Positions 35,701 through 44,700 of a stretch of DNA of 64,000 bases are shown piece after piece; the stretch's first letter is position 1; every line of letters starts with the position of its first letter. The stretch spans positions 124,001 to 188,000 of the forward strand of contig NW_020844755.1 in NCBI RefSeq assembly GCF_003704095.1. The letters run 5' to 3'. Source of the stretch: Pocillopora damicornis (Eukaryota). A program made the position numbers.

Positions 35701-38700
35701 TCCCCTAGTCTCTAGTCTTGCACCCAGACCTCTCACGGCTACGAGGTTGTAAGCTCTCCAACACTTGGGGCCCTACATTGAACGGTTACATCCTGAAAAT
35801 AGAAAGAATAGAAAAGATATTCGTCGATAAGTTAAAATTCTTAACTTTAATTTATCCAACAAACAAACGCATAGTGAAAATAATTTTGGAATGATTTTAT
35901 ATGTTAGAGGAGTTAAGAAAAAGAGAACGAAATTTAGAGGTAAGAGGCTATAAGGAGGTCCGTACTATAAGTCAAAGACTGAGTTTTTTTCTACTCTGAT
36001 TTATGGTGCGAACTGCGCGGGCCTCAATGCCGAGCGCAAAAAAAAAAAAAAACAAGCTCCCTAATTTATAGTATGGACAGAGAGAATGAAGTCAGTAAGA
36101 CATTAATTATAAAGAAGGGGAAATTATTTTTTATTCCAACGATCGACCGTTTCTTATCGTTTCTGCTCAGATGATTGGTCGATAAATATTTACTTCTTAA
36201 TTTTAACAAAAAGGGATTTATTTACTTATTTGGTTCAGTTCTGAACGAGAAAAAATTGAGAAAGATAGTCCACCATACGGGTCTTAAGAAAATGTGGATT
36301 TACCTTTGAGACAAATCGGCCATTTCTAATAGTGTTCTCTAAACTTTCCCGAACTAAATCTCAGAAGTACACGTGATTAGTTATCTGTTCGAAGCTGATA
36401 AATGCAATGAATAACCGCAGGAAAGAATTTCGAAAAGCTCACGTTATTCTTCCATGCAGAGCAAAGTAGAGAACTGTGGGTCGGGTACGTACGTTTATAT
36501 CTGTTGATATTGTGGAACTGCACCATCGGAGCAAGCAGAAATAAATAAATTAAAAGTTAAGATGACAAGTATTCGTTAAATTCACCGGAGCAAAGTCGAT
36601 AAGTAATATAAAAGTTTGTTTAGGTTCTCTAAGCGGAGGGAAGATCGGCAATCAGAATGCACAATGCAATACATTGCATTGAAACGCATCTTAGTTCTAT
36701 GTACTTACTTTAATTGATAAACATAATTAGTCAGAACACCGCCAATACCATCTTTACAATTGCTATCTTCCGCTACTTCGTAGGTATTGTAAGCCTCCCC
36801 TAATGTTTTGTCCGTCCAGCACTCGCCATTGTTTTGCAAAGCAAAGTATTCGATCATCTTGTCACGTGCGACGTATGCACATTGCAGGATTGTATACCCG
36901 GGATCGTCATCATTTCGTTGAGCCACGAAGGTCGCAAATTTATCTTTGAGAAGCCTCTTAGAGCCTTTGTTCTCCTTGAAACAGCCAATTGCATTAGGCG
37001 TTGGCTTTGACTCTGGAAAAAAAAAATGGGAAGTTGATAGTCTCTGTTGTGCCAGTTTTCATTCGTCATTAACTAAGGAGCATTTCAGCTTAAGAAGTGT
37101 TCTAGAGGAAAGTGATTTTAGAGGGCAGGCCGCTATCATCCTAGCTGCAATTCACCACTTTTATAATTTTAATTTTTGTCATCTTAACAACATAATATAT
37201 AGATTTAGCCAAGCCTAAAAGCGGAGCTTGCATTTTTTGCCAGGTACTCTTTTATAATTATGGGGCTACGCTCTGTGAGCTCCGCTATTACAACTGGACC
37301 AGACTTGCGTCTCCTTCAACCTTTCCCGACGGTAACCCAGAGCCAATGTTATAGCCAAGTAATACCGAGGGTCAATGAAGAAACATATGTCACAAGCTAG
37401 CTACTCAGATTGTTGTGTTATTCATTCGCTTTCACTTTAAACTCACCAAATGTATACACTTGGATGGAAAATTTTATTCCTATACCATTCTTGCAATCTT
37501 TGGCAGCAGCGGGCCCTTTCGCGTAGTAATTGTTTTTAGCAGTGCTACTGGACAAGCACTTTCCCTTATCGCCCAGTGCGAAATGGCTGTAACCTTTATC
37601 AAATGCAAGCTCTGCACACTCCAGAATGTAACTATTGAAGTTTGCTGGATCATAGTCTTTGTTAGGATATGCAAGAACTTCTTTAAAACCAGTCTTCGGT
37701 ATCTTGAAACAGCCAATATTATTGAAAGATGGTACTAGGATAAAAACAAAACGAACGTGAAGCGAAAAGGCTGTTCTTTTTTACATATGTTCACTAAAAC
37801 AGATTTAAATTACTCAACAAGTCGCTAAATTGTATGTTATGTTTGAGAGACTTAGGGCGAGGTGGCTAGCTTTATAGCTTTAAGACATTTTAATTTTCTC
37901 TCACTGATAACTTCTAAACTGTGCTCACCACTAACTAATTTAACTAGCTGCACATTTAACAGTTCCTTTTTTGCCTTTTAAGTCAAAGTATTTAATGTCA
38001 AAGTACGATTTTTCAGGACTGGAATGGAGTATTGGAAAAGTGATGGGGGGAGGGGTGGAGAATTGGGGATTTTGGAGATGCAGAAAAAAATATGGCTTGT
38101 ATTTCTAAGGAGGAAAACCGCTTTTTTTCTCTTTATGCACCTTTTTTGTTGTCTTTTTTCCCCATTTTTCTAGTAGTCTGTCCCTCGTATTTTCTCAGAT
38201 CTTTCAGCGAACGCTCTCTAGACAGGTTGACATCGTTGGAGAATTTTTACCTTACAGTATAGATCTATGTAGTATGAACTGCCCTTTTTTCTACCATGTA
38301 CAGAGAAAGACGTCAAATGGATAAATGCTTTATTACATACACTTTTCAAGTATTTTGTTTCGATCACTAACCTTGACAATTGACTCCACTAAAGTCGCCT
38401 GTGCAATCACAGTGGTATTCTGTGATGTCTTCTTTATCGTTACGGCAAGCTGCTCCATTTACACATGGATCGCTATCACACGGATAGGACTGAACTGAAA
38501 TCATCAAAACATAGCAACATGTTGGAATCTCTCGTAGCTTAAACCCCTTGAATAATGCTCGGTGAACCGATCACAATGAAAAGTCTCTTCTTTGATTGAC
38601 ACTAACCTTCACAATTCTTCCCACTGAACATTTGCTGACATTCACACGAGTACTGCATAGGATCATCTTTTTCCACCACACAAAATCCATTGTTCTGACA

Positions 38701-41700: not shown

Positions 41701-44700
41701 ACATTTCCTTACATTCACATGAGTACTGCATAGGATCATTGTTGTCCACCACACAAAACCCATCGTTTTGACAAGGATCATCATCACAACCAGTTGGATA
41801 TGAATACGAGGGTTGAATACGATACACAAAGTTTGCCATCTCTTTGCCAACTCCACCTGCACAATTGTCGGACTTTCCGTACTTGCTGTATGTATTAGCG
41901 ATGTCTTTACTGGTCCAGCATTGTACCTCGTTTTGTACAGCGAAGTACTCGTAGCCCATGTCTCGAGCCAGAGTAGAACAGTACAAAATAGTGGCTTTGG
42001 GGTCAGAGTTACTTGAGAAGCTGGCGTAATTGTCAGTCAGTAACTTCTCTGATTTCCCTTTTTCTATGAAGCATCCCTCAGGGACAGATTTCGGTAAAGG
42101 TTCTGAGAATGAAATCGATACAATTGTTCATTGGAATCATATTCCTTTTTCAGAGTAGACGTTAAAAATTTGTCGAACATGTGCAAATCCTTTCGTTGTG
42201 AAGCGACACGGGATGGCTAACGAATATCACTTTTACTTCCAATGATTACCGCAGAACACATCCACCGCGATAGGTTTGAGCGTCCATTATTTCGATTCCG
42301 TCGTAGTCTTCTCTATTCTTAACCTCTGTACATAATTTTAGTCCATTCTAGCCCTTCCAGTTTGTCAGTACCTCCAAAAATTTGGGAAAGATTTCAGCTT
42401 TTTTCAAAAAGCAGGTTTTAGTCAAATAAACCGACTCAAATTGTTTGAGTTGTATCGAATGTCTATTAAAGTTAGAATCTTCGAATCTCTTCGAATTTTA
42501 CTCACCAAAAGTATATACATGGACTGAAGATTTGCTTCCAATGTCATCCTTACAGTCACTGGCTTTGGTACCCCCTTTCTGGAAGTATTCGTTCTGAGCA
42601 GTTCCACTCGACAAACAAATTGCACGATCTCCGAGGGCAAAGTGACTGTAACCTTTGTCAAATGCAAGTTCGCCACACTCATAAATATACGATTTAATTT
42701 TTTCTGGATCGAAGTCTTGGTTGTGATTTGCCAGTACGCTTTTTAGACCAGTTTTCGGCGTCTTGAAACAACCAATCTCAGAGAAAGGAGAAGCTACGAA
42801 AATAATTAAATGCACGAGCGAATAAATGAATTTAAAAATAAAGGAAAACATAGATCGATAAATTAAACGACAAGAAGATACCAATCTCTACTATATAAAA
42901 TCGTCACACTGGTAAAAAGTTATAAAAACATCACGATAGCTTAGCGAAACAGTGTTTACATTGAATGATTTATTCTGCGACTGAAACAGGCAGACTCGCA
43001 GAAAAAGAATTCCGAGTGCTCGTACCGAAGACCTTCCGATTAGCACTTCGGATGCTCCTTCACTGAGCTATAGGAGAGTGGCAGACTAGGCCGTTTAACG
43101 AGGTCCAGAGTGACAAACCTCTTGTATACTGCTGGGATAGGAATGTTGAATGTGATGCATTTGCGCAATAATGCAAATGAAGGTGGTAAATATTAAGCCT
43201 GGTGATGTAAACCAAAGATGTTGTATTCAGCGAATGACACAGACATACTCGAAGAAAAGAACTACGAGTGCTCCTAATAAGATTGTTTACATTCTGCCAC
43301 TCTGTCGCCTGGAAATCTTCTAAGATCTTACGCGTATATGTAGATTAGCGGTCCCGAAGCCCTCTAGAAGCATGTGAGATAAAGATTTGCAGGAATCCGC
43401 TCAATCGAGAGGATGGCTTAGATTTGCCACACGAGTATATGACTTTGGCACCAGAGGAAAAGACTTAATTAATAACAACTGTTCAAATTTTACATTTCTC
43501 TCTATATTTTGTGCTTTTTAAATTCCTCTTTTTCACTTTCCCCTGATGAGGGCTGGAGTTTCTTAGCCGAAGCGTTGGGATTCTAAAATCATTTTTTTAA
43601 TACTTTTAGAAATTTTTACTCGTATAACGATTTAATATAGTTATGAAGCCACATGATCATAACTCTATTTTTAATATCAATTTTTTTTCATTTATTTTTA
43701 TCTTCATTATTTTCCTATACTAAAATGAAAGGTATGATGATCATTCTAAAACCAGCTCTGACTCAAACAATCTCTACTCTGTAACCCATGACATAATTTT
43801 CTTCCACCCGGGGTGTCAGGTTTTTTGTTTTCTCCGACGACGCTAGAAAGGGTTGTGAAATATGTGTACACTTTTTCCCTAGCCTTTAAGCAGGTCCTCA
43901 CTAATTACTACCGCTTCGGCAAGAGGGTTTCTTCGCCCAGGAAGACATGAACCTGCAACTCGAGCCGCTGAGAATCTCAAGAGGTCAGGCAATGATAACT
44001 TGTGTCGGCACCCCTGCAAGCCTCTCTCTGATTAGTCTCGAATGTTACGGCGGGCGGAGAAACGCGCGTTCTTCGAGGCTGATGAGAGCTTTCTCGCATG
44101 TTTATTTTTCCCTAACCGAGAATGACGCCGACGATTGAGGTTACAGGACTATCAATTAACAGAATCGTACAAGCAAACATAATTTTAGTGACGAATGCCA
44201 ACTTTACAACCTTTTTTTCACAAAACGTCTAAGAGTTGAGATTATAACTTCGCGAGAACTAACTGCTCACCCTTCCAAATCTCTAAAATGGATGGAACGG
44301 CTTAAATACGCAAAAAACCGCTCAGCGTGTTACGTATGCTAAGACGTGGACATTTTTATTACCTTGACATTTTTTCCCAAAGAAACCAGACAGGCAGTCA
44401 CAGTGGTATTCGGATATGTCTGTCTCATCATTCCTACAGGCTGCTCCATTTAGGCAGGGCTTGGAGTCACATGGAAATATTTGAACTGAAAGGAAAATGT
44501 GCTGTTATAGTTATGCTGAGGTTTCTGTTAGTATAAAGGAAGTAAGTTTGTTAATAAATTGTGGTGCTGTGGGTAGGGTGTATCACAAAATAACTTGGTT
44601 TCATCAACTGACTTGATAATGACCGCAAAGAGTTTCGGAGGCTAACGTTTCGAGCGTTAGCCTTACGGCAGAGCGAATTGCGAATGCTCGAGCCGTCAGC

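What the first reader, a model, noticed from the sequence alone, without database searches (positions are those of the whole stretch)
36709..42793. Paired four-cysteine WSC-like domains (A and B subtypes) always occurring as an A-B tandem
Seen: each ~95-aa domain follows GCF...C..LA..KGY.(H/Y)FA(L/V)....C(L/W)......Y...G....C..G.G.....VY. A types are at 42506, 40847, 39186 and 37447; B types at 41680, 40044, 38607 (mostly in the gap) and 36709. Established: WSC domains begin Y.GC(Y/F) and contain GY.YAGLQ.G.EC, but have more cysteines and are regarded as carbohydrate-binding. Inference: a reduced-Cys WSC relative that works as a heterotypic A-B pair.
[Added by the scan's program, not by the reader: the finding's places include an assembly gap (unread letters, written N; its length is only estimated) at 38741 to 38840, 39608 to 40034. 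Whether the letters on both sides are continuous or in frame is not known: test that first.]
Basis: partly seen in the sequence, partly recalled or inferred. Interest (0 to 1): 0.65.

Follow-up and report, generated by a model that had tools for sequence, protein, structure and literature searches.

The report
Four-cysteine WSC pairs in coral ADAMTS
The repeats are real: they are the tail of a stony-coral ADAMTS-type protease gene, built from alternating pairs of a slimmed-down, four-cysteine version of the WSC domain separated by EGF modules, a known domain type in an undescribed arrangement.

Summary
The eighth (B3) lies in an assembly gap; only its EGF tail is visible. All copies lie on the minus strand as phase 1-1 exons of one ~25 kb gene (61703 to 36705). 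This gene is collinear with a 1762-aa coral ADAMTS-like protein: propeptide, M12B catalytic domain, TSP1/spacer, 7 EGF, then repeated units.

The repeat unit is A | B+EGF | EGF, not A-B alone.

Both subtypes are WSC domains:
- Pfam WSC scores lie just under the cut-off.
- AlphaFold2 models reach pLDDT 94-95.
- The best PDB matches are yeast Wsc1 and Kremen1 WSC (probability 0.97-1.00).

The domains keep canonical cysteines C1, C2, C4 and C6 and lack C3, C5, C7 and C8. That amounts to two whole disulfides lost.

This four-Cys form is a large family, with 1516 representative proteins at E<=0.001. Named members are stony corals and a tunicate.

The A-then-B order is conserved in all four close homologues and in more distant ADAMTS relatives, so the pair is inherited as a unit. 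A physical A-B interface and glycan binding remain untested.

Verdict: a new variant of a known kind, of moderate interest.

The parts
42506..42793 (-). Exon with WSC subtype A, copy 1 (288 nt, phase 1-1)
   Evidence: ORF and splice-site reading; translation; AF2 pLDDT 95.2; Foldseek top hits are WSC domains
41680..42102 (-). Exon with WSC subtype B copy 1 (41813-42100) fused to an EGF domain (423 nt, phase 1-1)
   Evidence: Pfam WSC 27.6 bits and EGF 26 bits; translation; AF2 pLDDT 93.8; Foldseek
41444..41566 (-). EGF exon of unit 1 (123 nt, phase 1-1)
   Evidence: Pfam EGF 30.1 bits; tblastn to P0005 residues 1525-1565
40847..41131 (-). Exon with WSC subtype A, copy 2
   Evidence: Pfam WSC 17.1 bits; alignment
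40044..40466 (-). Exon with WSC subtype B copy 2 plus EGF; complete, donor GT at 40043
   Evidence: Pfam WSC 23.7 bits and EGF 25.9 bits; splice sites; tblastn 40467-40045 matches P0005 1384-1524 at 72%
39608..40034 (.). Assembly gap lying in the intron after B2+EGF. The EGF exon of unit 2 is expected inside it and is not observed
   Evidence: Spacing from B end to next A start is 565 nt against 549 nt in unit 1
39186..39479 (-). Exon with WSC subtype A, copy 3, on a 767-nt contig piece between two gaps
   Evidence: Pfam WSC 20.2 bits; an independent public ORF, P0015, is 95.5% identical over 112 aa, intron read-through included
38741..38840 (.). Assembly gap that would hold the WSC part of B copy 3 (not observed)
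   Evidence: Only the EGF tail is readable downstream of the gap
38607..38739 (-). Readable 3' end of the third B+EGF exon: linker plus EGF only
   Evidence: Pfam EGF 31.3 bits; 95% nt identity to 40040-40177
38372..38494 (-). EGF exon of unit 3
   Evidence: Pfam EGF 21.7 bits; tblastn
37447..37734 (-). Exon with WSC subtype A, copy 4
   Evidence: Alignment. No Pfam hit at E<=0.01. Lies in the A clade with support 0.994
36705..37012 (-). Terminal exon: WSC subtype B copy 4, then the stop codon at 36705-36707 (C-terminus of the protein)
   Evidence: Pfam WSC 24.8 bits; 66% identity to the C-terminal B of P0005, residues 1660-1760
44364..48727 (-). Seven single-EGF exons upstream of the WSC units
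   Evidence: Pfam EGF hits; tblastn to P0005 residues 1001-1287
48984..55612 (-). ADAMTS ancillary exons: cysteine-rich domain, TSP1 repeats, spacer
   Evidence: Pfam ADAMTS_CR_2, ADAMTS_spacer1, TSP1_ADAMTS; tblastn
56564..57624 (-). Two catalytic-domain exons carrying the zinc-binding motif, split by an intron: HETGH at the end of the first, MGVDHD at the start of the second
   Evidence: Translations; tblastn to P0005 residues 326-404
60883..61703 (-). 5' coding exons, including the reprolysin propeptide
   Evidence: Pfam Pep_M12B_propep 55.3 bits; tblastn to P0005 residues 20-144

Best explanation
The region is the 3' end of one multi-exon gene on the minus strand (61703 to 36705). The gene encodes a secreted ADAMTS-type zinc metalloprotease of a stony coral.

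After the usual ADAMTS core and seven EGF modules, the protein ends in repeated units. Each unit is built from three phase 1-1 exons: WSC-A, WSC-B fused to EGF, and EGF. As assembled there are three such units, followed by a final A-B pair that closes the protein.

A and B are two old, diverged subtypes of a four-cysteine variant of the WSC (PAN/apple-like) fold. By alignment to Kremen1, and using the disulfide map of yeast Wsc1, they keep the strand-1-to-L5-loop bridge (canonical C1-C6) and one helix-to-strand-4 bridge (C2-C4). They have lost the second helix bridge (C3 is Ala, C5 is Ser/Thr/Gly) and the bridge inside loop L5 (C7-C8). The loop is shortened to C-x2-G-x-G.

Shown:
- gene structure
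- domain identity
- fold prediction
- cysteine pattern
- conserved A-then-B order
- purifying selection

Inferred: the WSC-EGF array is an ancillary, non-catalytic region that holds the protease on a glycan-rich extracellular matrix or surface and so sets where and on what it cuts. ADAMTS C-terminal modules do this in general. The A-B pair is kept because the two subtypes have become non-redundant.
For: Gene:
- The window is collinear with P0005 (1762 aa) along its length in tblastn.
- Pfam on exon ORFs finds Pep_M12B_propep, ADAMTS_CR_2, ADAMTS_spacer1, TSP1_ADAMTS and EGF.
- P0005 itself carries propeptide, Reprolysin, CR, spacer, TSP1 and EGF.
- The zinc motif is readable across two exons.

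Organism:
- Best named relatives are Oculina patagonica (78% and 76%) and Pocillopora damicornis (49%).

WSC identity:
- Pfam results.
- AF2 pLDDT 95.2 and 93.8, pTM 0.86.
- Foldseek top hits are 7pz2, Kremen1 (5fws to 5fwv) and 9n3u.

Cysteine map:
- Kremen1 alignment.
- Wsc1 disulfides C27-C86, C49-C69, C53-C71 and C90-C98, read in passages of PMC9024836.
- 217 of 246 copies from 123 representative proteins have exactly four Cys.
- Ala sits at the C3 site in 243 of 253 copies.

Pair as a unit:
- Strict A,B alternation in P0003 to P0006.
- Of 37 two-domain runs, 14 are A,B and 1 is B,A.
- ADAMTS proteins P0025 and P0033, about 38% identical, also end in an A,B pair.

Selection:
- dN/dS is 0.08-0.26 among A copies and 0.10 for B1-B2, with dS of about 1 or more.

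Glycan role by association:
- In other proteins the same domain sits beside C-type lectin, F5/8 type C, SUEL lectin, tectonin, laminin G and pentraxin domains.
Against: - No binding of any kind was measured or modelled.
- Single copies fall just below Pfam's WSC cut-off, and A1 and A4 give no Pfam hit at E<=0.01.
- Sequence search of the PDB gives only non-significant WSC hits (E 0.36 to 6.5).
- In the Wsc1 alignment of that call, the fourth Cys falls on canonical C7 rather than C6.
- Solved WSC domains are reported to lack an obvious ligand pocket, and Kremen1 WSC binds a protein (PMC9024836 passages). A protein ligand is therefore as plausible as a glycan.
- The copy number is uncertain. Both gaps fall in the repeats, and 38603-38740 is 95% identical to 40040-40177, each abutting a gap.
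- No transcript evidence was available for the splice model.
Confidence: 0.75

Rival explanations
1. One reading: A and B form an obligate, physically interacting heterotypic pair. They share one composite binding site, or make a rigid two-domain body, and neither works alone.
For: - A,B order and short linkers are conserved in 4 of 4 close homologues and in more distant ADAMTS relatives.
- The A clade holds 13 first-of-pair and 0 second-of-pair members.
- Subtype-specific residues are conserved across 20 A-like and 25 B-like single-exon relatives.
Against: - The same order would persist simply because the exons are neighbours and are duplicated together.
- Other members of the family work in odd numbers or long homotypic runs: 1, 3, 5, 13 and 38 copies.
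- No model of a covalently linked A-B tandem was made.
Confidence: 0.35
2. The A-B order is a frozen accident of exon-block duplication. The two subtypes are just old paralogous repeats that act as independent beads or spacers.
For: - All module exons are phase 1-1 and the block A | B+EGF | EGF repeats with a period of about 1650-1750 nt.
- The number of units differs between species: 2 pairs in P0004 to P0006, at least 3 in P0003, and 4 as assembled here.
Against: - Both subtypes are under purifying selection with saturated dS.
- They have stayed distinct, at 26-30% identity, across coral lineages whose orthologues share only 49% identity.
- This argues that each has its own constrained role.
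Confidence: 0.3
3. The WSC copies are protein-recognition exosites, as Kremen1 WSC is for Dickkopf, rather than glycan binders.
For: - Kremen1 WSC makes direct contacts in the Krm1-Lrp6-Dkk1 complex, and WSC structures lack an evident sugar pocket (PMC9024836 passages).
- ADAMTS ancillary domains commonly recognise protein substrates (established knowledge).
Against: - The domain's partners elsewhere are mostly lectin-type modules.
- Fungal WSC proteins bind beta-glucan (cited in PMC9024836 passages).
Confidence: 0.3
4. The repeats are an assembly artefact or a decaying pseudogene.
For: - Two gaps lie inside the repeat region.
- One 138-nt stretch recurs at 95% identity next to both gaps.
Against: - All readable exons have open frames, consistent phase 1-1 splice sites and low dN/dS.
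- Similarity between units is confined to exons at 72-95%, and the introns have diverged.
- Orthologues exist in other corals.
- A3 is matched at 95.5% by an independent public ORF.
Confidence: 0.03
5. The domain is a PAN/apple module, not a WSC.
For: - WSC is a PAN/apple-like fold.
- One retained disulfide is a PAN core bridge (PMC9024836 passages).
- HGF N-domain and factor XI apple domains appear lower in the Foldseek lists.
Against: - PAN/apple hits have probability 0.30 or less and TM 0.46 or less. WSC hits have probability 0.91-1.00 and TM 0.58-0.68.
- Pfam finds WSC and no PAN family.
- The WSC-specific strand-1-to-L5 bridge is the other retained disulfide.
Confidence: 0.05

Closest known systems
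WSC domain (Pfam PF01822) as solved in yeast Wsc1 (7pz2) and human Kremen1 (5fws)
   Same: - Same predicted fold. These are the top Foldseek hits, with probability 0.97-1.00 and TM 0.58-0.68.
- The G-C-aromatic start, the helix Cys, the Y-F-A strand, the Cys after it and the closing V-Y strand are all shared.
- Pfam WSC is the only non-EGF family found.
   Different: - Four cysteines instead of eight.
- Ala at the C3 site in 243 of 253 copies, and Ser/Gly/Thr at the C5 site.
- No C7 or C8.
- C-x2-G-x-G replaces the longer loop that ends in CGG.
- Single copies score just under Pfam's cut-off.
ADAMTS proteases with C-terminal ancillary modules (established family; cnidarian repertoire described in PMC5446238)
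   Same: Propeptide, M12B catalytic domain with HExxHxxGxxHD, cysteine-rich domain, central TSP1, spacer and further TSP1 repeats.
   Different: - The tail is seven EGF modules followed by WSC-WSC-EGF-EGF units.
- The eLife paper on cnidarian TSR proteins mentions ADAMTS 10 times and neither WSC nor EGF in its main text (passage search).
- That vertebrate ADAMTS tails use PLAC, CUB or GON-1 modules is recalled, not tested here.
Tandem-WSC lectins of fungi (e.g. Serendipita indica WSC3, a beta-glucan-binding lectin)
   Same: Several WSC domains in a row in a secreted protein. This is the precedent for glycan binding, cited in PMC9024836 passages.
   Different: These are fungal, canonical eight-Cys domains that are not attached to a protease. 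No A/B alternation is known to me (recalled).
PAN/apple domains (PF00024), e.g. HGF N domain, factor XI
   Same: Same core topology, and one helix-to-strand disulfide in common (PMC9024836 passages).
   Different: Weak structural matches only, with probability 0.30 or less. No Pfam PAN hit.

Membership tests
WSC domain (PF01822) | Score at or above Pfam's gathering cut-off (27.8 bits) | tested here: not met
   - Single copies score 27.6, 24.8 and 23.7 bits (B) and 20.2 and 17.1 bits (A). A1 and A4 have no hit at E<=0.01.
- Multi-copy relatives pass easily, e.g. P0008 at 208.8 bits and P0009 at 108.7 bits.
- 44 of 52 single-copy relatives hit at E<=0.01.
WSC domain (PF01822) | PAN/apple-like fold: five-stranded sheet packed on one helix, wrapped by the L5 loop | tested here: met
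   AF2 models reach pLDDT 95.2 and 93.8. Foldseek top hits are only WSC structures, with probability 0.91-1.00. This is a prediction, not an experiment.
WSC domain (PF01822) | Eight conserved cysteines forming four disulfides | tested here: not met
   Exactly four Cys in all 7 readable copies and in 217 of 246 relatives' copies. They map to canonical C1, C2, C4 and C6 (PMC9024836).
WSC domain (PF01822) | Conserved CGG motif in loop L5 | tested here: not met
   Replaced by C-x2-G-x-G. The first Gly is present in 222 of 253 copies and the second in 245 of 253. There is no Cys before them.
WSC domain (PF01822) | Carbohydrate (or other ligand) binding | not testable with these tools
   Needs recombinant protein and binding assays.
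ADAMTS metalloprotease | Reprolysin propeptide and M12B catalytic domain with HExxHxxGxxHD | tested here: met
   Pep_M12B_propep scores 55.3 bits. HETGH closes one exon and MGVDHD opens the next.
ADAMTS metalloprotease | Cysteine-rich domain, central TSP1, spacer and C-terminal TSP1 repeats | tested here: met
   Pfam ADAMTS_CR_2, ADAMTS_spacer1 and TSP1_ADAMTS on exon ORFs. The window is collinear with P0005, which carries all of them.
PAN/apple domain (PF00024) | Pfam or structural match better than to WSC | tested here: not met
   No PAN family. Foldseek probability is 0.30 or less.

The most novel reading that the evidence does not exclude
The A-B pair is a true two-domain lectin unit: a composite site made by two non-equivalent four-Cys WSC domains. 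Corals use it to tether an ADAMTS protease to a particular glycan surface, such as the skeletal organic matrix, mucus or the symbiont cell wall. The wider four-Cys WSC family would then be an unrecognised major class of glycan-recognition modules in marine invertebrates.
Probability: 0.15. Interest if true: 0.6.

Novelty: new variant of a known kind. Interest (0 to 1): 0.35.

Why it matters
- It gives a clean natural example of a disulfide-rich fold shedding two whole disulfides while keeping its shape. This marks out a large subfamily: 1516 representative clusters at E<=0.001. Pfam's WSC model catches single copies only marginally, so such proteins tend to stay 'hypothetical' in coral genomes.
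- It adds a new tail architecture to ADAMTS proteases, which remodel extracellular matrix.
- In corals, matrix remodelling bears on tissue growth, skeleton formation and symbiosis. A glycan-tethered ADAMTS would be a testable player there.
- It does not overturn anything known.

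Tried and rejected
- **Complex prediction** on A1 and B1 as separate chains gave no verdict: score 0.30 against a mark of 0.34. The controls were not run and my alignments were not used. It counts neither for nor against binding.
- **PDB sequence search.** The 7-copy profile found only a chance hit to a Shedu protein (E 0.28). The 52-row profile found WSC chains, but at E 0.36-6.5.
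- **Intron comparison.** I looked for intron similarity that could place the sequence flanking the gaps. Similarity is confined to exons, so this gave nothing.
- **Plus-strand genes.** I looked for genes on the plus strand under or beside the repeats. 0 of 76 ORFs of 62 aa or more hit Pfam at E<=1e-4. I scanned 76 of the 106 such ORFs, leaving out those overlapping the minus-strand exons already explained.
- **Stand-alone domain proteins rejected.** The single-domain 'proteins' of 94-200 aa among the hits are not stand-alone domain proteins. Their ends read like translated intron (pyrimidine-tract N-termini, read-through after the donor site). They are single exons called as ORFs on short contigs.
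- **Literature searches** found no description of an ADAMTS with WSC domains, nor of a four-Cys WSC subclass:
  - 'WSC domain' with ADAMTS
  - with coral
  - with metalloprotease/cnidarian
  - with 'four cysteine'
  - with coral skeleton terms

  Only listings were seen for most papers. Subscription journals are not covered, and supplements were closed.
- **Collections not used.**
  - Genome contigs holds bacteria and archaea only.

Full report
**What is there**

The window is eukaryotic, with about 37% G+C and short exons. All features of the finding lie on the minus strand. Stop-to-stop ORFs and a motif scan show a row of WSC-like and EGF-like exons from 48811 down to 36705.

Pfam on the exon ORFs and tblastn of a 1762-aa homologue, P0005, against the window show that they belong to one gene. 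It runs from about 61703 to the stop at 36705-36707 and is collinear with P0005 along its length. In order it encodes:
- reprolysin propeptide (60883-61179)
- M12B catalytic domain
- ADAMTS cysteine-rich domain
- TSP1, spacer, then three more TSP1 repeats
- seven single-EGF exons (48727-44364)
- the WSC units

The zinc-binding motif is split by an intron. HETGH ends one exon and MGVDHD opens the next. I describe this but did not join the exons.

The best named relatives are hypothetical proteins of the stony corals Oculina patagonica (78% and 76% identity to the B+EGF exon) and Pocillopora damicornis (49%). The window therefore comes from a stony coral. It is not human.

**The repeat unit**

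Splice sites with AG/GT and phase 1 on both sides fit every module.

| Unit | A exon | B exon | EGF exon |
|---|---|---|---|
| 1 | 42506-42793 | B+EGF 41680-42102 | 41444-41566 |
| 2 | 40847-41131 | B+EGF 40044-40466 | not seen |
| 3 | 39186-39479 | tail only, 38607-38739 | 38372-38494 |
| 4 | 37447-37734 | 36708-37012, then stop | none |

The unit is A, B+EGF, EGF, not A-B alone.

**The gaps, tested first**

Gap 39608-40034:
- It begins 9 nt after the donor site of the complete B2+EGF exon, so it lies in an intron and cuts no WSC copy.
- The distance from the B-exon end to the next A start is 565 nt, against 549 nt in unit 1. The sized gap has room for the expected 123-nt EGF exon, which is not observed.

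Gap 38741-38840:
- Downstream of it, only the linker and EGF of a B+EGF exon can be read.
- Upstream there is only intron-like sequence, so neither continuity nor frame across it can be tested.
- A regular unit would need at least about 330 nt there, not 100. B3 as a WSC domain is therefore inferred, not seen.

One caution applies to both gaps. The stretch 38603-38740 is 95% identical to 40040-40177, and each abuts a gap. The 767-nt piece carrying A3 sits between the two gaps, so the number of units is uncertain.

A3 itself is real. It differs from the other A copies with dS above 1.2. An independent public ORF, P0015, matches it at 95.5% over 112 aa, including intron read-through.

**Are the copies more than chance?**

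- The seven readable copies align with four invariant cysteines. A copies are 63-67% identical to A1, and B copies are 26-30% identical to A1.
- B1-B2 are 81% identical, and B4 is 35-41% identical to them.
- dN/dS is 0.08-0.26 among A copies and 0.10 for B1-B2, with dS near or beyond saturation.
- DNA similarity between units is confined to exons.

These are old, selected paralogous repeats, not collapsed or duplicated assembly.

**Is it WSC?**

- Pfam WSC scores 27.6, 23.7 and 24.8 bits for the B copies and 17.1 and 20.2 bits for A2 and A3. A1 and A4 give nothing at E<=0.01. The cut-off is 27.8 bits.
- Of 52 single-copy sequences (7 from the window, 45 relatives), 44 hit WSC at E<=0.01. The only other family hit is EGF, in 2 of them.
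- AlphaFold2 with 52-row alignments gave pLDDT 95.2 for A1 and 93.8 for B1, both with pTM 0.86.
- Foldseek against the PDB puts only WSC structures on top for both models:
  - yeast Wsc1 7pz2 (E about 6e-4, probability 1.00, TM 0.58-0.64)
  - Kremen1 (probability 0.97-1.00, TM 0.60-0.68)
  - a Fusarium glyoxal oxidase with a WSC domain (probability 0.91-1.00)
- PAN/apple domains follow with probability 0.30 or less.
- Sequence search of the PDB is weak: WSC chains only, at E 0.36-6.5.
- The protein atlas places both domains next to cnidarian clusters in which only 15-21% of members carry Pfam WSC.

**Which cysteines are left**

In the Kremen1 alignment the four Cys fall on canonical C1, C2, C4 and C6. 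The C3 site is Ala and the C5 site is Ser.

The Wsc1 structure paper gives the disulfides as C27-C86, C49-C69, C53-C71 and C90-C98, that is C1-C6, C2-C4, C3-C5 and C7-C8 (PMC9024836; abstract and passages read). The variant therefore keeps one WSC-specific bridge and one PAN-core bridge, and has lost two bridges whole. The L5 loop is shortened to C-x2-G-x-G.

The Wsc1 alignment puts the fourth Cys on C7 instead, so this mapping is an inference. I had no model coordinates to check it.

**How wide is the family**

- A profile of the seven copies found 1516 representative proteins at E<=0.001 and 222 at E<=1e-10.
- In the 150 listed plus the 4 first homologues, I extracted 246 near-full copies from 123 proteins. 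Of these, 217 have exactly four Cys.
- Across all 253 copies, window included, Ala holds the C3 site in 243.
- Copy numbers run from 1 to 38.
- Partner domains in 24 proteins scanned include C-type lectin, F5/8 type C, SUEL lectin, tectonin, laminin G, pentraxin, VWA, CUB, SRCR, Kringle, collagen and an adhesion-GPCR core. Several ADAMTS proteins are among them.
- Named carriers are Oculina, Pocillopora, Stylophora and Acropora (stony corals) and the tunicate Styela clava. One of them is already called 'WSC domain-containing protein' by UniRef.
- Names for the other representatives could not be fetched.
- Many 94-200-aa 'proteins' among the hits are single exons read as ORFs, not free-standing domains.

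**The A-B question**

- In P0003 to P0006 the copies alternate A,B with adjacent envelopes. One truncated B in P0003 looks like a gene-model fault.
- I built a FastTree tree of the 253 copies on 97 columns, midpoint-rooted.
  - The A-type clade has 39 tips and support 0.88. Its 13 members that come from two-domain runs are all the first of their pair.
  - The B-type clade has 56 tips and support 0.94. It has 15 second members and 2 first members.
- Using the wider A and B clades, the 37 two-domain runs break down as: 14 A,B; 1 B,A; 4 A,A; 1 B,B; 2 B,other; 15 neither.
  - Eight of the 14 A,B runs come from the four close homologues.
  - Six come from P0020, P0025, P0027, P0033, P0036 and P0061. 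Of these, P0025 and P0033 are ADAMTS proteins.
- Related sequences share labels by descent, so these counts show inheritance of the pair as a unit, not co-function.
- All four A copies in the window fall with the first A of the Oculina-like proteins (support 0.994). B4 matches their terminal B. The last pair here is thus a first-type A joined to a terminal-type B.

**What it most likely does**

ADAMTS tails decide where the enzyme sits and what it cuts (established knowledge). WSC domains bind glucans in fungi and a protein in Kremen1 (PMC9024836 passages).

Given the lectin-rich company this domain keeps, I favour a matrix or glycan tether. A protein exosite is the close rival. This step is inferred.

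**Novelty**

- The domain is WSC, a known kind, in a four-cysteine form.
- That form is common in public protein sets but, in the searches I could make, it is not described as such.
- An ADAMTS tail of EGF plus alternating WSC pairs is not described either. A survey of cnidarian TSR and ADAMTS proteins does not mention WSC or EGF in its main text (PMC5446238).
- The verdict is therefore a new variant of a known kind.

Noticed in passing
window 38607-38739, 40044-40176, 41680-41812: The EGF halves of the B+EGF exons are far more alike (dS 0.12-0.33, nt identity 89-95%) than the WSC halves of the same exons (B1-B2 dS 0.99). This could be gene conversion limited to the EGF part, or a scaffolding effect, since two of the three stretches abut gaps.
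   Followed up: partly
window 37447-37734 and 36708-37012: The last pair is mixed. A4 groups with the first-type A of the Oculina-like homologues (55% against 43% identity to P0005's two A copies), whereas B4 matches their terminal B (66% against 43%). No orthologue of their second A was seen in the window.
   Followed up: partly
window 24542-30787, minus strand: The downstream neighbour gene has AMP-binding enzyme exons (acyl-CoA synthetase-like). Pfam AMP-binding scores 46.3 and 41.1 bits, and AMP-binding_C gives a weak hit.
   Followed up: no
window 8710-15564, minus strand: A further neighbour looks like nucleoside diphosphate kinase 7, with NDK at 53.4 bits and the PH_NDK7_N domain at 42.3 bits on separate exons.
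   Followed up: no
window 52589-52688: A third 100-N assembly gap lies inside the ADAMTS gene, between the exons matching P0005 residues 624-666 and 664-736. No residues of the homologue appear to be missing there.
   Followed up: partly
window 57625-59053: P0005 residues 278-325 (part of the catalytic domain) found no tblastn match in the window. One or two short or diverged exons probably lie in this interval.
   Followed up: no
P0142 (1603 aa, representative library): This ADAMTS carries a pair of four-Cys WSC domains and a Kringle at its N-terminal side (WSC 345-440 and 452-542, Kringle 553-630). The WSC-Kringle neighbourhood also occurs in Kremen.
   Followed up: no
P0007 (5602 aa) and P0008 (1427 aa, Styela clava): These are giant proteins made almost wholly of four-Cys WSC copies, 38 and 13 respectively. 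Their A-versus-B score differences alternate, hinting at a two-domain period there too.
   Followed up: no
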